Of a stretch of DNA of 61,496 bases, positions 9,723 through 22,905 are shown in pieces. The translations under genes were made by a program, and so were the position numbers. The DNA comes from a virus. Position 1 is the first letter of the stretch; each line of letters begins with the position of its first letter. The stretch lies in UHGV virus genome UHGV-1354897, one strand, 5' to 3'. The notes beneath the pieces were generated by a model. That model was not told the origin of the DNA, did no database searches, and saw only the letters and a program-made list of their open reading frames with translations.

Positions 9723-10451
9723 ATGGCCATTGAAATTAAAATGTCTTCACAAGTAGTGCAAGACACAGGCGTTAAAATTCTGGTTTACGGTGAAGCGGGT
9801 ATGGGTAAAACCAGCCTTGTAGCCACGCTACCTAAACCAATTTTGATCAGCGCAGAGTCCGGTCTGTTATCTATTGCAGCGGAAAACCTTAATCGCGTTT
9901 ATGGTAACATGGGATTGCCGATCGTTTATGATATCCCAGTTATCGAAGTTAAATGTCTGGAGGACGTTGAAGCTGCTTATCAGTGGTGCGTAACTCCAGC
10001 TAACCAGCAGTATTTCGATTCTATTGCGCTTGACAGCTTGAGCGAAATTGCTGAACAATGTTTAAACAATGCGAAAAAAGGAACAAAAGATCCTCGTCAA
10101 GCTTATGGTACTTTGCTTGAAAAGATGCAAGATCTGATCCGTAAATTTCGCGATATTCCTGGCAAACATGTTTATATGTCTGCTAAAATGGGCAAAGACA
10201 AAGATGAAGTCTCCGGTGTTACCGCGTATGCTCCATCTATGCCTGGGTCCAAATTGGGGCAAATGCTCCCTTATTTCTTCGACGAAGTATTTCGTCTGAA
10301 TGTAAATAAGGATCAGCAAGGTAACTCATATCGTTACTTGCAAACTCAACCGGACTTTAATACAATCGCTAAGGATCGTTCGGGACGTTTAGATGCGGTT
10401 GAAGTCCCACACTTAGGTTCTGTTATCAACAAAATGAAAGGTATCAACTAA
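9723..10451 (+). CDS. Sak4-like RecA-fold ATPase
   Basis: Walker A GEAGMGKTS near N-terminus; about 240 aa; sits beside a DUF669-like gene. Confidence 0.6.
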   Translation: MAIEIKMSSQVVQDTGVKILVYGEAGMGKTSLVATLPKPILISAESGLLSIAAENLNRVYGNMGLPIVYDIPVIEVKCLEDVEAAYQWCVTPANQQYFDSIALDSLSEIAEQCLNNAKKGTKDPRQAYGTLLEKMQDLIRKFRDIPGKHVYMSAKMGKDKDEVSGVTAYAPSMPGSKLGQMLPYFFDEVFRLNVNKDQQGNSYRYLQTQPDFNTIAKDRSGRLDAVEVPHLGSVINKMKGIN

Positions 10452-11320
10452 TGACTATGCCAACTAATTTCCACTTTGACGCGAGCAGCTATCAAGCACC
10501 TTCTTACGGCGCATTGCCGAAAGGTTGGTATAAAGCAGTAATTGAAGCATCTGAATTTAAACCGACCAAAAATGGCGGTATAGCAATCCAGGTAACGTTT
10601 AGCATCATTGATGGTTTTGCTAAAGGTCGTAAAATCTTTGCTCGTTATAACGTTATCAACGACAACGAAGATACTGTGCGTATCGCTTACGAGCAACTGG
10701 GCGCTCTTTCCCACGCTGTAGGCGTAATTCGCTGGGATACCCCTGCTCAACTGCACAACATTCCGCTGAACCTGCGTCTGAAAGTTCGTTCTCAGGAAGG
10801 CTATGAAGACAGCAACGAGCCGAACGGTTACGCTAACATCAACGATCCGGTTAAGTATGCAGAAAAAGAAGCAGGTGCTCCGGCAATGGGTGCTCAAGCA
10901 GCAGTAGCCAACCCGTTCGGTGCAGGTGCTCCAGCACAGCAGCCAGCATTCCCGGGCGCAGCACCGCAGCAGCCAGCAGCTAACCCGTTTGCTCAGCAAC
11001 AGCAAGCTCCGGTACAGCAACAGCAGCAGCCAGTTCAGCAGCCTGTTCAGCAACCAGCACCGCAGCAGGGCGCAGCAGCTCAACCGTGGCAGAACGCAGC
11101 ACCGCAGCCGTGGGATAATCCTGCTCAAAACGCAGCGCCGCAGCAGCCAGTTCAGCAAGCTCCGGTACAACAGCCAGTAGCACCGGAAGCAGCTCAGCAG
11201 CCGTGGGCGCAGCAGGTAGCACAGCCGGGTCAGGCAGCAGCACCACAGCAGCAAGCGCAGCCACAGCAGCAAGCTGAACCGCATCCGGCACAAGCAGCAG
11301 TCCCGCCGTGGCAGCAGTAA
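10451..11320 (+). CDS. DUF669-like phage protein (putative ssDNA-binding) with a long Gln/Pro/Ala-rich C-terminal tail
   Basis: Globular N-terminal ~140 aa, then ~150 aa of low-complexity Q/P/A repeats with PWQ/PWD motifs. Confidence 0.5.
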   Translation: MTMPTNFHFDASSYQAPSYGALPKGWYKAVIEASEFKPTKNGGIAIQVTFSIIDGFAKGRKIFARYNVINDNEDTVRIAYEQLGALSHAVGVIRWDTPAQLHNIPLNLRLKVRSQEGYEDSNEPNGYANINDPVKYAEKEAGAPAMGAQAAVANPFGAGAPAQQPAFPGAAPQQPAANPFAQQQQAPVQQQQQPVQQPVQQPAPQQGAAAQPWQNAAPQPWDNPAQNAAPQQPVQQAPVQQPVAPEAAQQPWAQQVAQPGQAAAPQQQAQPQQQAEPHPAQAAVPPWQQ

Positions 11321-11346
11321 GTTAACTCTCCCTCTGTAGTGTCCCT

Positions 11347-11375
11347 AAGCCGTCGAAAGACGGCTTATTTTTCTA
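11347..11375 (+). terminator. intrinsic terminator
   Basis: Hairpin AAGCCGTC-GAAA-GACGGCTT followed by ATTTTT. Confidence 0.75.
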
Positions 11376-11385
11376 AGGTACTCCA

Positions 11386-12294
11386 ATGGCTATTTATATT
11401 GCAGAAAAAACACTTCAAGCAATCAATGACGGTGTGCAAAAAGATCAGGGCGGGACTTACCGTAAATATCTCGGCGTAGTTATTCCCACAATTGAAGACG
11501 CATATCGCCCCGAAAGCGGCAACCGCAGTCACTTAGGTGCTTCCCTTATTGGACAACAATGTGCTCGCAAGCTGTTCTACGGGTATCGCTGGGCTACTCG
11601 TAAAGAGTTCGATGGACGCCAGCTCCGCCTATTTAACCGCGGACATCTGGAAGAAGCGCGTTTCATTGCTATGCTTCTTGCGGCAGGTATGCAGGTCTAC
11701 CAGCAGGATGAAAACGGACACCAGTTCCGTATCAGCGAAGCTGGCGGACACTTTGGCGGTTCCTGCGATGGTGTGGTTATAGGTTGTCCGGACGTTCAGC
11801 CTGGGATGCCCGTGCTTACTGAAATGAAAACTCACAACGATAAGTCATTCAAGAAGCTGAAAGCTAAAGGTGTCAAAGAAGCTAAACCTGAGCACTATGT
11901 ACAGATGAACGTGTACATGCGAAAGCTTGGACTTGGTGCAGCGTTATATCTTGCTGTAAACAAGAACGATGATGAAGTTTACGCAGAAATTATTCCATTT
12001 GATCCGGTTACTGCGGACATGTATATTGATCGTGGTGTGCAGATTGCTATTGCTACGGATATTCCTGACCGTGCTTTTAAAGACTCTACATTCTTCGAAT
12101 GCAAATGGTGCGACCACTCCTCATTGTGCTGGCGTAAAACTATGCCGGAAGTAAACTGTCGCACATGTCAATTTCTTGAGCCAAAAGATGATGGAACATG
12201 GTATTGCAATTTTCATTCCGTTGCAGTAGATACGCAGGGACAGAAAGTTGGTTGTCAAAACTATCAAGTAGCTAATTATTACGGGAAAGATTGA
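11386..12294 (+). CDS. Cas4/RecB-like PD-(D/E)xK exonuclease with C-terminal Cys cluster
   Basis: Motifs GGSCDGVV and EMKTH; cysteines in CKWCDH, CRTC, WYC, GCQ at the C-terminus. Confidence 0.6.
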   Translation: MAIYIAEKTLQAINDGVQKDQGGTYRKYLGVVIPTIEDAYRPESGNRSHLGASLIGQQCARKLFYGYRWATRKEFDGRQLRLFNRGHLEEARFIAMLLAAGMQVYQQDENGHQFRISEAGGHFGGSCDGVVIGCPDVQPGMPVLTEMKTHNDKSFKKLKAKGVKEAKPEHYVQMNVYMRKLGLGAALYLAVNKNDDEVYAEIIPFDPVTADMYIDRGVQIAIATDIPDRAFKDSTFFECKWCDHSSLCWRKTMPEVNCRTCQFLEPKDDGTWYCNFHSVAVDTQGQKVGCQNYQVANYYGKD

Positions 12295-12295
12295 T

Positions 12296-14272
12296 ATGCA
12301 ACTCCGCGATTATCAACAGGAAGCAGTTTATAGCGTATTCCGCTATTTTGATGCTGAAAAGGGTAACGCGGGGAACCCTTTGATCCTGTTACCAACAGGG
12401 ACAGGAAAATCGCTCGTTATCGCGGGGTTCCTCGATCTGCTTTATAAATGGTATCCAAACCAGCGCGTAATGATGTTAACTCACGTCAAAGAGTTAATTG
12501 CGCAAAACTATGATAAATTAATGAAAGTCTGGCCTGAAGCGCCAGCAGGTATTTACAGCGCAGGTTTGAAGCGTAAAGAAGTTTATAATCTTATCACATT
12601 TGCGGGGATTGCATCTGTTGCTAAGCATCCTAAAAAGTTCGGCAAGGTTGATCTAATCTTTGTGGATGAAGCGCACCTTATTAGTCCGCGTGATGCAACA
12701 ATGTATAAGAAGTTCTTTGCAGCATTGCGTGAAGTTAACCCGTATTTAAAAATTATCGGTCTTACCGCTACACCTTACCGACTGGGTTACGGCTCAATTG
12801 TTAAGGAAAACGAAGACGATGATGCTTTATTTGATAAAGTAACGTTTGATGCAACTACCCCTGAAGCCTTTAACTGGTTCCTGGAGCAAGGCTATTTGCT
12901 TCCGGTTGTGCCAAAGCGTACAAAGATGGAACTGGACCTCAATGGTGTAGGGAAACGCGGCGGTGAGTTTATTCAGAGTGAGCTGCAAAGTGCGGTGAAC
13001 CGCGACGACGCAACACTCCGAGCACTTGAGGAAGCCATTGAATGTGGTGAAGACCGTCAAAGTTGGCTTATATTTTGTTCTGGTATTGAACACGCTAAAG
13101 ATGCGTGTGATATGCTAAACGATATGGGTATTAGTTGCGGATGTATTCACTCAAAGCTTGATGCAAAAGAGCGTGACGAGATTATTGAAAAGTTCAAGCG
13201 TGGAGAGTTTCGAGCGCTGACAAATAACAACGTCTTAACCACAGGTTTCGACCATCCAATGCTTGATCTGATTATCATGCTTCGCCCAACTGCCTCGGCG
13301 GTGCTATGGGTTCAGATGTTGGGTCGCGGTACGCGTCCGGTATATGCGGAGGGCTTTGATCTTTCCACGCAGGAAGGCCGCTTGCAAGCTATTGCAGCAA
13401 GCCCTAAGCAGAACTGCCTTGTACTGGATTTCAGCGGTAATACGCGTCGTTTGGGCCCTATTAACGACCCTGTTAAACCCAAGCGCCCGGGCGAAAAAGG
13501 TGCTGGTACTGCTCCGGTTAAAGAATGCGATGTGTGCGGGTCGTATAATCATGCATCTGCTCGCTATTGTGGTGGCTTTGCACCAATTCCTATGGACAGC
13601 GTTACACAGGAACAAGTTCAACAATTATATTTGAAGGGATTCAGACTACGTGGAACGGATTATGTTAAAGAAGGATTTTGCGGTCATGAGTTTAAGTTCC
13701 AGACGAAACTTAAAAAGGCAGCAAGTACCGAAGCACTGATCAAACAGGACATTCCGGTAGTTGAAGACTTCAAAGTTACGCATGTGACTTATGCGAAGCA
13801 CACTAAACGCAATGACAGCTCCAAACCTCCAACAATGAAGGTGACTTATTATTGCGGTAGTAAAATATTCAGCGAATGGGTAGCTCTACTTCATGGTGAC
13901 TGGGCGGGTCGTAAAGCGGTCGCATGGTGGAAGAAAAGGACGCATCTTCCTTTACCACAAACTATTGAAGAAGCTCTTGATGTTGCTGCAATGCTTAAAA
14001 CACCGAAATACATCAAAGTTCATACCAATAAGAAATGGCCTGAGATATTGAACTACGATTATGATGGTACGTGTTTCGGTAAGTTTGAAGCTCCACAGGA
14101 CGACGAAGCTATTCAAGTTAAAGTATACGGGCAAGATGGAACAACCGAAGGTCCGAGCTATAACGATGATGTGAGCTGGGATGATATTGTTTCGCAGAAT
14201 ACGCAAGGTATAACAGTGAACAATGTGGTTAATCCTGTACAAGTAGATGATCCAGATTACGTTCCGTTCTAA
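12296..14272 (+). CDS. superfamily 2 DNA helicase (DEAH-type) with C-terminal Cys-rich region
   Basis: Walker A PTGTGKS, motif II DEAH, helicase C-domain features, CDVCGS...YCGG cysteines. Confidence 0.8.
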   Translation: MQLRDYQQEAVYSVFRYFDAEKGNAGNPLILLPTGTGKSLVIAGFLDLLYKWYPNQRVMMLTHVKELIAQNYDKLMKVWPEAPAGIYSAGLKRKEVYNLITFAGIASVAKHPKKFGKVDLIFVDEAHLISPRDATMYKKFFAALREVNPYLKIIGLTATPYRLGYGSIVKENEDDDALFDKVTFDATTPEAFNWFLEQGYLLPVVPKRTKMELDLNGVGKRGGEFIQSELQSAVNRDDATLRALEEAIECGEDRQSWLIFCSGIEHAKDACDMLNDMGISCGCIHSKLDAKERDEIIEKFKRGEFRALTNNNVLTTGFDHPMLDLIIMLRPTASAVLWVQMLGRGTRPVYAEGFDLSTQEGRLQAIAASPKQNCLVLDFSGNTRRLGPINDPVKPKRPGEKGAGTAPVKECDVCGSYNHASARYCGGFAPIPMDSVTQEQVQQLYLKGFRLRGTDYVKEGFCGHEFKFQTKLKKAASTEALIKQDIPVVEDFKVTHVTYAKHTKRNDSSKPPTMKVTYYCGSKIFSEWVALLHGDWAGRKAVAWWKKRTHLPLPQTIEEALDVAAMLKTPKYIKVHTNKKWPEILNYDYDGTCFGKFEAPQDDEAIQVKVYGQDGTTEGPSYNDDVSWDDIVSQNTQGITVNNVVNPVQVDDPDYVPF

Positions 14273-21952: not shown

Positions 21953-22905
21953 TGCTTGACGCTCTTAAATTTGTTCAAGGCTCCGTCGCTAAAAAGGAAC
22001 TGGTAGAAGGGCTTACCAGCTTTCTTATCCGTGATGGGCAGGTACAGGGCTTTAACGGTGTTATTGCACTGGGTAGTCCTATTGAGTTGGATATTGATTG
22101 CAAGCCCGAAGCTGGGCCTATGATTAAAGCTATTTCCAACTGCGATGAAACAGTGCAGCTAACAATGATGGCTAACGGTAAGTTAAATATCAAGTCCGGT
22201 CCGTTTCGTGTTGCTATACGCTGCATTGATAAAGAAACGCCGCACGTATTTCCTGAAGGTGATTTGTACGAAATAGACGGCGCTCGCTTCGTGCATGGTG
22301 TAAAGTCCGTTGCTCCATTTGTTGGGTCCGATGCTTCCCGTCCGTGGGCTTGCGGTATCCTGATTAATAACGGTAGCCTGTTTGCTACAAATAACGTCAC
22401 TATTGCGGAATACTGGTTTGGTAATCAGTTCCCTATTGATTGCATAATACCTTCCGTTGCAATTAAAGAAATACTGCGTATTAAAGCTAACCCGACGCAT
22501 ATTCAGGTTAGCAAGAATAACGTAACGTTTCATTATCCGGAAGGTCGCTGGTTGCGGACACAGCTTATTGATGCGGAATGGCCCGATATACGTCGTATTT
22601 TAAATGTTCAATGCAATGCACATCCTGTTGATCCAGGTCTTTTTGAAGGCTTGCATAAAATTAAACCGTTCGCAGAAGACCGACCGCGTGTATATATTGA
22701 AAACGGTCTAGCCCGTACTCACTATGATGATGCAGAAGGTGCAAGCTTCGTATTACAGGACCGCACTATAACGGGAGTGTACAATATTGACATCCTGCTA
22801 TTGCTTGAAAATGTGGTTAAGACGGCGGACTTTAGTTTATATCCGCAACCTTGCGCATTCTTTGGGGAAAACCTTCGCGGTGTATTAATTGGAGAACGTG
22901 TATGA
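21952..22905 (+). CDS. DNA polymerase sliding clamp-like protein (DnaN-like)
   Basis: C-terminal segment LIDAEWPDIRRIL resembles the beta-clamp segment LVDGRFPDYRRVLP (recalled from memory); placed directly upstream of the polymerase. Confidence 0.5.
   Translation: MLDALKFVQGSVAKKELVEGLTSFLIRDGQVQGFNGVIALGSPIELDIDCKPEAGPMIKAISNCDETVQLTMMANGKLNIKSGPFRVAIRCIDKETPHVFPEGDLYEIDGARFVHGVKSVAPFVGSDASRPWACGILINNGSLFATNNVTIAEYWFGNQFPIDCIIPSVAIKEILRIKANPTHIQVSKNNVTFHYPEGRWLRTQLIDAEWPDIRRILNVQCNAHPVDPGLFEGLHKIKPFAEDRPRVYIENGLARTHYDDAEGASFVLQDRTITGVYNIDILLLLENVVKTADFSLYPQPCAFFGENLRGVLIGERV

What the first reader, a model, noticed from the sequence alone, without database searches (positions are those of the whole stretch)
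10451..11320. DUF669-like protein carrying a ~150-aa Gln/Pro/Ala-rich disordered tail
A globular N-terminal domain is followed by a long low-complexity tail with recurring PWQ/PWD motifs. This is reminiscent of SSB C-terminal tails that recruit partners, but much longer. The tail also creates a spurious 281-aa antisense ORF.
Basis: seen in the sequence. Interest (0 to 1): 0.45.

Follow-up and report, generated by a model that had tools for sequence, protein, structure and literature searches.

The report
Phage SSB with tryptophan-tipped tail
This gene encodes the likely single-stranded-DNA-binding protein of a Seurat-like E. coli phage; its long floppy tail is conserved and ends in a non-acidic Pro-Pro-Trp motif in place of the acidic tip that such proteins normally use to recruit partners.

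Summary
ORF 10451-11320 (+) encodes 289 aa: a Pfam DUF669 domain (aa 8-144) that AlphaFold2 models as an OB fold, then a 144-aa tail that is 78% Gln/Ala/Pro, has no Lys or Arg, and is predicted disordered.

The tail is not junk. Across 12 Seuratvirus alleles its dN/dS (0.058) is as low as the domain's (0.076), all indels are in frame, and all 3 Phe and 4 Trp are invariant. The antisense ORF is spurious.

The tail is typical of its clade. Of the 149 nearest 50%-identity representatives, 144 carry a Trp within 12 residues of the C-terminus (117 as PPW). Tails range from 0 to 217 aa (median 141). Long tails add evenly spaced Phe motifs proximally and QPW motifs distally.

The gene always sits in a cassette: Sak4 annealase, SSB, Cas4-type exonuclease, RadD-like helicase.

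Best reading: a replication/recombination SSB with a disordered linker and a private, non-acidic docking tip. The partner is not identified; Sak4 and the RadD-like helicase are the best candidates. I found no prior description of this tip. It is a new variant of a known kind.

The parts
9723..10451 (+). Sak4-like (AAA_24, RecA-core) ssDNA annealing ATPase. Its TAA stop overlaps the SSB ATG (TAATG).
   Evidence: Pfam AAA_24 E=1.2e-27; phrog_124 'Sak4-like' E=1.7e-59; overlap seen. Immediately upstream of the SSB in 11/11 phage relatives and 62/62 viral contigs. No nonsynonymous differences among 9 Seuratviruses.
10451..11320 (+). Complete CDS of the DUF669-family putative SSB (289 aa plus stop).
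10451..10885 (+). Globular N-terminal domain (aa 1-145): DUF669, OB-fold topology b1-b2-b3-alpha-b4-b5.
10886..11317 (+). Disordered Q/A/P-rich tail (aa 146-289).
   Evidence: Composition; AF2 pLDDT 38-58, no secondary structure; dN/dS 0.058, with 61 of 81 variable sites at codon position 3.
10907..10993 (+). Proximal 'F-zone' (aa 153-181): NPF, AFP, NPF motifs.
   Evidence: All F invariant in 12 alleles. Family-wide, F lies proximal to internal W (median relative position 0.27 vs 0.49, p=2e-17).
10994..11053 (+). QQQAPV/QQPV micro-repeat (aa 182-201), the in-frame indel hotspot that sets linker length.
   Evidence: TRF periods 12 and 21 at 10993-11057. Nearly all length differences among 12 alleles map here and all are in frame.
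11081..11122 (+). W doublet QPWQNAAPQPWDNP (aa 211-224).
   Evidence: Invariant apart from one Q-to-P change (L006) in 12 alleles. Alignable as W-x5-6-QPW-[DEA]-x-P in representatives whose domain is only 45-61% identical.
11195..11215 (+). Third internal W motif QQPWAQQ (aa 249-255).
   Evidence: The commonest internal W context family-wide is QPW[AQ][QP].
11279..11317 (+). C-terminal tip PHPAQAAVPPWQQ (aa 277-289), the conserved near-terminal PPW motif.
   Evidence: 144 of 149 nearest representatives have W within 12 aa of the end; P at -2 in 131/144 and at -1 in 129/144. 69/69 complete genes in viral contigs. HPAQ-x3-4-PPW recurs in 18 representatives.
11346..11377 (+). Intrinsic terminator-like hairpin (9-bp stem, GAAA loop) plus T-run, directly after the SSB gene.
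   Evidence: Annotated as a rho-independent terminator in phages SA126VB and SA80RD.
11386..12294 (+). Cas4-domain (PD-(D/E)xK-type) exonuclease of the cassette.
   Evidence: phrog_1990 E=1.3e-117. Downstream of the SSB in 10/11 phages and 41/42 contigs.
12296..14272 (+). RadD-like SF2 helicase of the cassette, a candidate receptor for the tip.
   Evidence: E=9.8e-55 to E. coli RadD 6jde over aa 3-348. Present in 42/42 contigs. Equivalents of the SSB-tip pocket are V14 F15 F18 F45 L120 I154. Rim equivalents are R21->D19, R49->N55, R145->K152.
10448..11293 (-). Spurious 281-aa antisense ORF (not a gene).
   Evidence: L/R/C-rich; interrupted in 6 of 12 alleles. Variable sites fall at position 3 of the + frame.

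Best explanation
The gene encodes the phage's single-stranded-DNA-binding protein. It has an OB-fold DUF669 domain that coats ssDNA, a 144-aa intrinsically disordered linker, and a conserved C-terminal docking motif.

The docking motif differs from the acidic, Phe-terminal tip of bacterial SSBs and of the HK620-type DUF669 SSBs. It is neutral and near-terminal ([TVAL]-P-P-W-[AMQ]-[QRK]; here PHPAQAAVPPWQQ).

I infer that the tip, helped by the three internal QPW copies, tethers enzymes of the invariant cassette to SSB-coated ssDNA. The cassette is Sak4 annealase, SSB, Cas4-type exonuclease and RadD-like helicase. The leading candidates are Sak4 (precedent: HK620) and the RadD-like helicase (precedent: E. 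coli RadD, whose ATPase is switched on by the SSB tip). A non-acidic tip would keep this interaction network separate from that of the host SSB.

Linker length is adjustable through in-frame slippage in a QQPV micro-repeat. The evenly spaced aromatic residues probably also give weak SSB-SSB cohesion.

Shown here: domain family and fold, disorder, purifying selection, family-wide conservation of the tip and motif order, and cassette synteny. Inferred: ssDNA binding, docking, and the identity of the partner.
For: Family and fold:
- Pfam DUF669, and PHROG families annotated as SSB.
- 111 DUF669-type phage proteins match in BFVD.
- No other SSB is annotated in the non-structural two-thirds (20-56.8 kb) of the reference genome Seurat, and the gene lies in the replication/recombination module.
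- The Sak4-then-SSB gene order also occurs for two experimentally proven SSBs, HK620 and N4. The HK620 SSB needs its last 6 residues to load and stimulate Sak4 (PMC5928155).

The tail is functional:
- dN/dS is 0.058 against 0.076 for the domain. Indels are in frame only, and all F and W are invariant.

The tip behaves as a linear motif:
- 144/149 representatives and 69/69 viral-contig genes have a near-terminal W, with PP preceding in about 90%.
- It is retained with tails of 14-217 aa, including basic short forms such as KKPWQK.
- Internal motifs are alignable and in the same order across genera.

Cassette:
- Sak4 62/62, exonuclease 41/42, helicase 42/42, also in short-tail phages.
- DNA polymerase and the clamp-like factor are absent from 20 kb of one short-tail phage.

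Helicase:
- It is a RadD homologue (E=1e-54). E. coli RadD binds the SSB tip in a pocket made of T16/L17/F20/L44/L113/L147 framed by R21/R49/R145 (PMC10238739).
- In 72 cassette helicases the pocket stays hydrophobic and becomes aromatic, while the R49 equivalent is basic in only 3/72.

Expression:
- The Sak4 stop overlaps the SSB start, and a terminator follows the SSB gene.
Against: - There is no direct evidence of ssDNA binding or of any protein contact.
- I could not reproduce homology to the experimentally proven SSBs. BLASTP finds nothing and hhalign gives 1-11% probability (E=0.013 profile-profile, collinear over b1-alpha only). HK620 SSB does not reach the current Pfam DUF669 threshold.
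- The GenBank record of phage NP1 has TGG->TGA at the first tail Trp. This removes about 100 aa including the tip in a propagated phage, so the tip may be dispensable in the laboratory, unless this is a sequencing error.
- AF2 monomer models do not dock the tip anywhere.
- The helicase beside the only acidic-tip exception with usable context (L034) also lacks the R21/R49 equivalents, so tip and pocket do not clearly co-vary.
- The alignment around R49 contains a 5-residue insertion with nearby basic residues.
- Because the cassette is invariant, co-occurrence cannot tell the partners apart.
Confidence: 0.6

Rival explanations
1. The tail is mainly a 'sticker-and-spacer' cohesion module. Evenly spaced aromatic residues in a Q/P/A spacer would drive SSB-SSB cooperativity or a liquid-like replication/recombination compartment, as the E. 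coli SSB linker does. On this view the W motifs have no specific receptor. This is not exclusive of the best explanation.
For: - Aromatic residues occur about once per 19 residues and are spaced more evenly than chance (CV 0.72 against 0.93 +/- 0.03 for shuffles).
- The tail is uncharged and Q/P/A-rich, like the Q/G/P-rich E. coli SSB linker.
- For E. coli SSB, linker-linker contacts drive condensation, and aromatic or basic linker residues tune it (PMC7584906 and PMC12143593).
- Tail length and composition vary while disorder is kept.
Against: - Relatives with 14-30-aa tails keep only the tip, inside the same cassette. The conserved core is therefore the motif, not the bulk.
- W motifs have specific flanks (QPW[AQ][QP]; PPW at the end) and are positionally alignable between genera.
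- dN/dS of 0.06 constrains the exact sequence more than composition alone would require.
Confidence: 0.3
2. The tip contacts the host RNA polymerase and activates late transcription, as the non-acidic C-terminus of N4 SSB does through the beta-prime subunit. This would couple late gene expression to replication.
For: - N4SSB is the published distant relative of DUF669 (PMC4889955) and also follows a Sak4-like gene.
- Its tip is non-acidic with a near-terminal aromatic residue (AAKSLFGKK).
- Its C-terminal residues are essential for late transcription, independently of ssDNA binding (PMC4496689).
- No phage RNA polymerase is annotated in the 20-56.8 kb part of the Seurat genome examined.
Against: - No sequence similarity to N4SSB is detectable here.
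- The PW tip is found across phages of very different hosts (Escherichia, Pseudomonas, Vibrio, Rhizobium, Paracoccus). It tracks the recombination cassette, not any transcription feature.
Confidence: 0.1
3. The W motifs fold back onto the protein's own OB fold, with Trp mimicking stacked bases. This would autoregulate ssDNA binding or mediate contacts between neighbouring SSBs, as the E. coli SSB and T7 gp2.5 tips do with their OB folds.
For: - A tip-OB contact is documented for E. coli SSB (PMC7584906).
- pLDDT rises slightly at the last block of the window protein (66 against about 51).
Against: - AF2 of a natural short-tail relative leaves the linker below 50 and the tip at 54, with no added strand or helix.
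- Monomer models cannot see contacts in trans.
- The tail carries almost no negative charge, so it cannot mimic DNA electrostatically.
Confidence: 0.12
4. The tip is a clamp-binding (PIP-box-like) motif, Q-x-x-[VLT]-P-P-W, that tethers the phage's DnaN-like processivity factor and polymerase.
For: - The tip profile has Q enriched at -6 (57/144) and T/V/A/L at -3.
- The phage encodes a clamp-like factor (22165-22902) with a weak DnaN match, E=6e-7, below the cut-off.
- Phage 73 also has both polymerase and clamp-like factor.
Against: - Short-tail forms (KKPWQK) lack the Q at -6.
- One such phage shows no polymerase or clamp homologue in 20 kb of non-structural genes while keeping the tip.
- Pro-Pro before the aromatic residue is not typical of clamp-binding motifs (my own knowledge).
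Confidence: 0.05
5. The tail is functionless low-complexity sequence produced by replication slippage and tolerated because it is disordered.
For: - The DNA contains micro-repeats, and alleles differ by repeat-unit indels.
- The NP1 record carries a premature stop in the tail.
Against: - dN/dS is 0.058 at pS of about 0.2. Indels are strictly in frame and aromatic residues are invariant.
- The tip and the motif order are conserved across thousands of distant relatives.
Confidence: 0.02

Closest known systems
E. coli SSB (OB fold + intrinsically disordered linker + acidic C-terminal peptide MDFDDDIPF)
   Same: It has the same three-part logic. An OB fold is followed by a linker whose length and composition drift while disorder is kept, and then by a conserved short C-terminal motif. 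The linker is Q/P-rich with scattered aromatic residues (PMC7584906, PMC12143593).
   Different: - There is no detectable sequence relationship; the OB fold belongs to a different family (DUF669).
- The linker is 144 aa against 56, is A-rich rather than G-rich, and has 7 aromatic residues and no Arg or Lys.
- The tip is neutral, Trp-based and 2 residues from the end (1-11 across the family). E. coli SSB instead has an acidic tip whose terminal Phe carboxylate is recognised.
HK620 SSB (HkaK/Abc1), reported as DUF669, with its Sak4 partner
   Same: It shares the gene order Sak4 then SSB with overlapping stop and start. It is experimentally a true SSB whose last 6 residues are needed to load and stimulate Sak4 (PMC5928155). 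The tip contains Pro-Pro-aromatic (NDYPPF).
   Different: - It is not detectably similar in sequence here.
- Its tail is short (about 40 aa). Its tip is acidic with a terminal Phe: 107/117 of its family end in F, with 2-5 acidic residues nearby.
- Within the 8 kb fetched around the HK620 recombination module, no homologue of the cassette's exonuclease or RadD-like helicase is detected.
Phage N4 SSB (gp45)
   Same: It was linked to DUF669 by published HHsearch (98% probability, PMC4889955). It follows a Sak4-like gene. It has a non-acidic tip with a near-terminal aromatic residue, and its C-terminus is functionally essential.
   Different: - The link could not be reproduced here (11% probability).
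- The N4 tail is about 35 aa and G/A/K-rich, with Phe rather than Trp.
- Its documented tip function is activation of the host RNAP, which is not established for this clade.
E. coli RadD-SSB tip interaction
   Same: The cassette helicase is a RadD homologue (E=1e-54). RadD ATPase is activated by the SSB tip docking in an RD1 hydrophobic pocket, and RadD accelerates RecA strand exchange (PMC10238739, PMC8887467). Here a RecA-like Sak4 is part of the same cassette.
   Different: The pocket equivalents are more aromatic, and the R49 and R21 equivalents that are modelled to clamp the carboxylate are mostly lost. No binding has been tested.
PrgE of plasmid pCF10 (PDB 8s4s), the closest solved structure
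   Different: Sequence identity is only 12%. PrgE has no long Q/P/A tail or PW tip, and it binds dsDNA as well as ssDNA as a filament.

Membership tests
Pfam DUF669 (PF05037) | Match to the family HMM above the curated gathering score | tested here: met
   53.4 bits against a cut-off of 21, E=3.9e-14, aa 8-144 covering profile positions 2-138 of 138.
Pfam DUF669 (PF05037) | Acidic C-terminal tail, stated as typical of DUF669 by Kazlauskas et al. 2016 | tested here: not met
   The tail has 3 D/E in 144 aa and the tip is PPWQQ. 144/149 nearest representatives have a PW-type tip and only 2 have an acidic-F tip. This is a descriptive generalisation, not a formal criterion of the family.
SSB-type architecture (OB fold + disordered linker + conserved C-terminal motif) | OB-fold nucleic-acid-binding domain | tested here: met
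SSB-type architecture (OB fold + disordered linker + conserved C-terminal motif) | Intrinsically disordered linker of variable length and composition | tested here: met
   pLDDT 38-58 with no secondary structure. Tails range from 0 to 217 aa across representatives and composition varies (Q/P/A, Q/G, Q/N).
SSB-type architecture (OB fold + disordered linker + conserved C-terminal motif) | Conserved short C-terminal peptide | tested here: met
   P at -2 in 131/144 and at -1 in 129/144, with W invariant by anchoring. 69/69 in viral contigs.
SSB-type architecture (OB fold + disordered linker + conserved C-terminal motif) | Binds ssDNA preferentially and without sequence specificity | not testable with these tools
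   Needs EMSA or fluorescence titration with purified protein.
Canonical bacterial SSB family (E. coli SSB type) | Acidic tip ending in a C-terminal Phe (D-D-D-I-P-F type) recognised through its alpha-carboxylate | tested here: not met
   The protein ends ...AAVPPWQQ. W is followed by 1-11 residues across the family.
Canonical bacterial SSB family (E. coli SSB type) | Sequence homology of the OB domain | tested here: not met
   The only Pfam hit is DUF669. phmmer against all PDB sequences finds nothing at E<=10.
HK620-type Sak4-associated SSB (experimentally validated) | Detectable homology to HK620 HkaK | tested here: inconclusive
   BLASTP finds nothing. hhalign gives probability 1.2% with a single sequence and 3.3% profile-profile (E=0.013, collinear over 66 columns).
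HK620-type Sak4-associated SSB (experimentally validated) | Gene immediately downstream of sak4, translationally coupled | tested here: met
   TAATG overlap in the window. Adjacent in 11/11 phages and 59/62 contigs. HK620 has the same layout.
HK620-type Sak4-associated SSB (experimentally validated) | The C-terminal tip mediates Sak4 loading and stimulation | not testable with these tools
   Needs annealing and EMSA assays with and without the tip. Structure prediction of complexes was not available here.
N4 SSB family | Detectable homology to N4 gp45 | tested here: inconclusive
   hhalign probability is 11% over 25 columns. The published HHsearch link of 98% (PMC4889955) was not reproduced.
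T7 gp2.5-type SSB | Structural similarity to gp2.5 | tested here: not met
RadD family (for the cassette helicase 12296-14272) | Homology across the SF2 motor core | tested here: met
   E=9.8e-55, aa 3-348 against RadD aa 5-344.
RadD family (for the cassette helicase 12296-14272) | SSB-tip pocket framed by three conserved arginines (R21, R49, R145) | tested here: not met
   The window equivalents are D19, N55 and K152. Across 72 helicases the R49 equivalent is basic in 3, the R21 equivalent in 14 and the R145 equivalent in 71. The hydrophobic pocket is retained.

The most novel reading that the evidence does not exclude
The tail may be an ordered, multivalent assembly platform rather than a simple tether. 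On this reading each motif class (proximal F motifs, the W doublet, the third QPW, the PPW tip) recruits a different enzyme of the invariant cassette of Sak4, SSB, Cas4 exonuclease and RadD-like helicase. A large clade of phage SSBs would then have replaced the near-universal acidic, carboxylate-read SSB tip with a Trp-based code read by an aromatic pocket, for example the re-tuned RD1 pocket of the RadD-like helicase. That would create a recombination hub orthogonal to the host SSB interaction network.
Probability: 0.25. Interest if true: 0.75.

Novelty: new variant of a known kind. Interest (0 to 1): 0.55.

Why it matters
SSB C-terminal tips are the address labels that bring repair, recombination and replication enzymes to ssDNA. 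The acidic Phe-terminal tip is treated as the rule for bacteria and many phages, and the one survey of DUF669 proteins described their tails as acidic (PMC4889955).

This window represents a very large phage clade. There are 5,073 cluster representatives at E<=1e-3, and the PW tip occurs in about 97% of the 149 nearest. In this clade the tip is neutral, Trp-based and not terminal. It is embedded in some of the longest SSB linkers I know of, and it is always linked to the same four-gene recombination cassette.

If the inferred docking is real, three things follow.
- It defines a second, host-orthogonal SSB recognition code.
- It would explain why some phage SSB/annealase pairs may not be portable between hosts in recombineering. 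For example, the ssb of phage PA73, which belongs to this clade, was toxic in E. coli (PMC5928155).
- It gives concrete peptides and pocket residues to test.

It also matters practically. The gene is left as 'hypothetical protein' or misnamed FtsK, chemotaxis protein or transpeptidase in GenBank records, and the tail breaks metagenome assemblies.

Tried and rejected
(1) A word-index homology search with the N-domain alone returned a single protein. I replaced it with a profile of ten diverse N-domains.

(2) tblastn of the full protein covered only the N-domain, because the low-complexity filter masks the tail. I therefore extracted and compared tails by script.

(3) I tried to link the domain to proven SSBs. 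BLASTP against HK620 SSB, hhalign of the family profile against HK620 SSB and N4 SSB, and a profile-profile run against 117 HK620-type proteins all gave non-significant results. HK620 SSB and N4 SSB do not hit Pfam DUF669 at E<=0.1.

(4) phmmer of the N-domain, Sak4 and the exonuclease against PDB sequences found nothing.

(5) I tested cis-docking of the tip with AF2 on the window protein and on a natural short-tail relative. The tip is not placed with confidence.

(6) I used phyletic co-occurrence to single out the partner. The cassette is invariant, so it cannot discriminate among Sak4, exonuclease and helicase. It only argues against the polymerase and clamp-like factor, and only on one contig.

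(7) I looked for co-variation using the two acidic-tip exceptions. One contig is too short. The other lacks the Cas4 exonuclease, but its helicase also lacks the arginines. With n=1 this is not conclusive.

(8) No other protein in the window carries a terminal PW motif.

(9) Literature searches for a PPW or Trp-type SSB tip, and for Seuratvirus SSB work, found nothing relevant. 'PPW' matched only an author's initials.

(11) The antisense ORF as a real gene is rejected.
Full report
WHAT THE WINDOW IS. The 2.6 kb around the finding is 94-97% identical to 35 phage genomes of the genus Seuratvirus (Queuovirinae), including Seurat, CAjan and the BASEL phages GottfriedDienst, KurtStettler and WildeMaa. 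The 61.5-kb window therefore has the size and content of a complete Seurat-like E. coli siphophage genome.

THE OBSERVATION. ORF 10451-11320 (+) encodes 289 aa. Pfam DUF669 matches aa 8-144 (E=3.9e-14, 53.4 bits against a cut-off of 21). PHROG 13350 matches the full length including the tail (E=5e-138), and phrog_6015, annotated as SSB, matches at 7e-40. Residues 146-289 are 31.9% Gln, 25.7% Ala and 20.1% Pro. They have no Lys or Arg, three acidic residues, three Phe (NPF, AFP, NPF) and then four Trp (QPWQ, QPWD, QPWA and the terminal PPWQQ). The chance that all four Trp fall in [QP]PW is about 1e-4 by shuffling. AlphaFold2, run with an 87-sequence alignment, gives pLDDT 93-97 for the domain. 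For aa ~140-280 it gives pLDDT 38-58 with no secondary structure.

THE ANTISENSE ORF. The 281-aa ORF on the minus strand (10448-11293) is real as an open frame but is not a gene. It is L/R/C-rich. It is broken by stops in 6 of 12 alleles, usually at CDS nt 435. In addition, 61 of 81 variable tail sites lie at position 3 of the plus-strand frame. Only the ~145 codons opposite the tail are systematically open. That follows from CAG/GCA/CCG codons, whose complements contain no stop.

IS THE TAIL UNDER SELECTION? I compared 12 Seuratvirus alleles of 282-296 aa.
- All length differences are in-frame indels, concentrated in the QQQAPV/QQPV micro-repeat (aa 182-201), which is also a DNA tandem repeat.
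- All three Phe and all four Trp are invariant.
- Nei-Gojobori dN/dS is 0.058 for the tail and 0.076 for the globular domain, at pS of about 0.2.
The exact tail sequence is therefore under purifying selection as strong as that on the fold. This excludes the 'tolerated slippage junk' reading.

HOW WIDESPREAD IS IT? Orthologues from other genera all carry a long Q/P/A/G/N-rich tail with periodic Trp and a P-[PAS]-W motif a few residues from the end. The phages examined were Nonagvirus JenK1, the Nipunavirus-type Xanthomonas phage DoCa3 and the near-identical Variovorax phage VPv62, Craquatrovirus PSTCR4, Vibrio phage 033B, Paracoccus phage R3, Iggyvirus Pa-V, Kleczkowskavirus RHEph04 and Septimatrevirus phage 73.

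A profile search gave 964 relatives. All but two of the best 120 have a near-terminal Trp, whether the tail is 14 or 116 aa, and the short forms end in basic tips such as KKPWQK or TPPWKR.

An exhaustive phmmer search of 1.84 billion representatives gave 5,073 hits at E<=1e-3. Of the 149 nearest representatives:
- 144 have their last Trp within 12 residues of the C-terminus, and 117 of those are exactly PPW.
- Pro is at -2 in 131/144 and at -1 in 129/144.
- One to eleven residues follow the Trp (mode 5).
- The median tail is 141 aa (range 0-217).
- Only two have a classical acidic tip.

In 80 IMG/VR loci, all 69 complete genes have the PW tip. The window's tail is therefore typical of its clade. 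The conserved element is the tip, consensus [TVAL]-P-P-W-[AMQ]-[QRK], often preceded by HPAQ.

INTERNAL ARCHITECTURE.
- In tails of at least 80 aa, Phe lies proximally and internal Trp centrally. Median relative positions are 0.27 and 0.49 (Mann-Whitney p=2e-17), and the order holds in 77 of 98 proteins.
- Internal Trp is mostly QPW[AQ][QP].
- Aromatic residues occur once per ~19 residues and are more evenly spaced than chance (CV 0.72 against 0.93 +/- 0.03).
- At intermediate distance (domains 45-61% identical) the tails align at their motifs in a fixed order: F motifs, a W-x5-6-QPW-[DEA]-x-P doublet, a third QP(A)WA, then (E)PHPAQA-x-[VL]-PPWQ.
These behave as short linear motifs, not merely as compositional stickers.

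The literature supports an SSB function at the family level. Kazlauskas et al. linked DUF669 to N4 SSB by HHsearch and noted that DUF669 phages lack other SSBs (PMC4889955). Hutinet et al. showed that the HK620 protein HkaK, which they assign to DUF669, is a true SSB whose last six residues (NDYPPF) are needed to load and stimulate the adjacent Sak4 (PMC5928155).

I could not reproduce these remote links. BLASTP and hhalign give only non-significant, though collinear, matches, and HK620 SSB does not reach the current Pfam threshold. The SSB assignment for the window protein therefore rests on four points:
- DUF669 membership.
- The predicted OB fold.
- The absence of another annotated SSB in the non-structural 20-56.8 kb of the Seurat genome.
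- Synteny. ssDNA binding itself is inferred.

CONTRAST OF TIPS. In the HK620-type family, 107 of 117 proteins end in a terminal Phe with 2-5 acidic residues in the last 15, and some end literally in DDDIPF. N4 SSB ends ...AAKSLFGKK, which is non-acidic with a near-terminal aromatic residue. Its C-terminus is essential for activating late transcription through RNAP beta-prime (PMC4496689). The window's clade has a third solution: a neutral or basic, near-terminal PPW.

GENOMIC CONTEXT. The Sak4 stop overlaps the SSB start (TAATG), and a 9-bp-stem intrinsic terminator follows the SSB gene. The order Sak4, SSB, Cas4-type exonuclease, SF2 helicase holds in all sampled relatives:
- Sak4 lies upstream in 11/11 phages and 62/62 contigs, directly adjacent in 59.
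- The exonuclease is present in 41/42 contigs and the helicase in 42/42.
- The same cassette surrounds short-tail, basic-tip forms.
- One such phage shows no polymerase or clamp homologue in 20 kb of non-structural genes.
- Phage 73 has the whole module, including polymerase and clamp-like factor.
Among 9 Seuratviruses, Sak4 has no amino-acid differences at all (pS 0.12).

A CANDIDATE RECEPTOR. The cassette helicase is a clear homologue of E. coli RadD (E=9.8e-55 over the motor core). RadD binds the acidic SSB tip in an RD1 hydrophobic pocket (T16, L17, F20, L44, L113, L147) framed by R21, R49 and R145. This binding switches on its ATPase, and RadD accelerates RecA strand exchange (PMC10238739, PMC8887467).

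In the window helicase the pocket equivalents are V14, F15, F18, F45, L120 and I154, and the rim equivalents are D19, N55 and K152. Across 72 cassette helicases:
- The pocket stays hydrophobic and becomes aromatic. Position 17 is Y/F/W in 60, position 20 is F/W in 70, and position 44 is F in 58.
- The R49 equivalent is basic in 3, the R21 equivalent in 14 and the R145 equivalent in 71.
This is what one would expect if the pocket had been re-tuned from clamping a terminal carboxylate to holding an internal Trp, but it is not proof. The helicase next to the one acidic-tip exception (L034) also lacks these arginines. The R49 region contains a 5-residue insertion with other basic residues. And the hydrophobic residues could be conserved for structural reasons.

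MOST LIKELY MECHANISM (confidence about 0.6). The protein is the SSB of a self-contained recombination/replication cassette. Its OB domain coats ssDNA. The uncharged linker projects a PPW tip and three weaker QPW copies. These tether Sak4 and/or the RadD-like helicase, and possibly the exonuclease, to SSB-ssDNA. The non-acidic chemistry keeps the network separate from the host SSB interaction network. Linker length is tuned by in-frame repeat slippage, and evenly spaced aromatic residues may add SSB-SSB cohesion. The steps shown and the steps inferred are listed under 'best explanation'.

EVIDENCE AGAINST, AND OPEN POINTS.
- There are no biochemical data.
- The NP1 GenBank record has TGG->TGA at the first tail Trp, with the remaining ~100 codons intact down to TPPWAQPQQ*. 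Either the tip is dispensable for propagation in the laboratory or the record has an error.
- AF2 monomer models do not dock the tip in cis.
- Rival functions cannot be excluded and are scored separately: condensate scaffold, N4-like RNAP activation, autoregulation and clamp binding.

NOVELTY. I found no description of a Trp-type SSB tip in the searchable literature. The only general statement on DUF669 tails calls them acidic. I rate this a new variant of a known kind: an SSB with a disordered linker and a docking tip, but with a different and widely conserved tip chemistry, and multi-copy ordered motifs in an unusually long linker.

Noticed in passing
L002:3035-3037 (Pseudomonas phage NP1, NC_031058.1): The annotated 181-aa NP1 orthologue ends at a TGA that replaces the TGG of the first tail Trp. 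The next ~100 codons are intact and in frame down to TPPWAQPQQ*, matching the full-length orthologue of the near-identical phage DoCa3 over the tail. This is a recent nonsense mutation or a sequencing error, and the 360-nt 'gap' in the annotation is the rest of the gene.
   Followed up: partly
window 9723-10451: The Sak4-like ATPase has no nonsynonymous differences among 9 Seuratvirus genomes despite pS = 0.12. It is the most constrained of the four genes or segments compared (Sak4, SSB domain, SSB tail, Cas4 exonuclease).
   Followed up: partly
L035, L049, L050, L060, L073, L074, L076, L079, L082, L104, L112; also P0001: 11 of 80 IMG/VR contigs end inside the SSB tail, so this GC-rich low-complexity stretch breaks metagenome assemblies. 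Protein cluster P0001 is 99% identical in the domain but goes out of frame at the start of the tail, which looks like the same artefact.
   Followed up: no
GenBank records PQ202980.1 (CSP1C), KX198614.1, KX982260.1, MN988482.1: In several phage records the features at this locus carry names that do not fit a DUF669 SSB. They include 'cell division protein FtsK', 'methyl-accepting chemotaxis protein', 'multimodular transpeptidase-transglycosylase' and 'DUF669 domain-containing NTP-binding protein'. I suspect these come from low-complexity matches to the tail, but I did not check this.
   Followed up: no
L002, L008, L009; hits H2 and H4: Near-identical loci come from phages reported on different host genera. 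NP1 (Pseudomonas), DoCa3 (Xanthomonas) and VPv62 (Variovorax) have identical SSB domains. 'Cronobacter phage CSP1' and 'Aeromonas phage SD04' are 97% identical to E. coli Seuratviruses. This suggests broad host range, mislabelling or contamination.
   Followed up: no
window 12296-14272: The RadD-like helicase has a ~310-aa C-terminal extension beyond the region that aligns to RadD, containing a Cys-rich, zinc-finger-like stretch (CDVCGSYNHASARYCGG). In some Seuratviruses (SA80RD, VogelGryff) an HNH endonuclease gene follows the exonuclease gene where the helicase gene lies in this window.
   Followed up: partly
window 22165-22902: The 246-aa 'DNA polymerase processivity factor' next to the polymerase has a weak, sub-threshold match to the DnaN beta-clamp (TIGR00663, E=6e-7, 28.8 bits against a cut-off of 137.65).
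   Followed up: no
L026:4481-5068 (HK620 hkaK): The experimentally characterised HK620 SSB is called DUF669 in the literature and by NCBI. It does not match the current Pfam DUF669 model at E<=0.1 and is not detectably related to the window's clade by hhalign. 'DUF669' as used in annotation seems broader than the current Pfam model.
   Followed up: partly
L034:1772-4657: The one acidic-tip member of the clade with usable context (tip GDDVPPFE) has RusA where the Cas4-type exonuclease normally lies, and no exonuclease homologue is found on its 8-kb contig. This may hint that the PW tip and the exonuclease go together, but it is a single case.
   Followed up: partly
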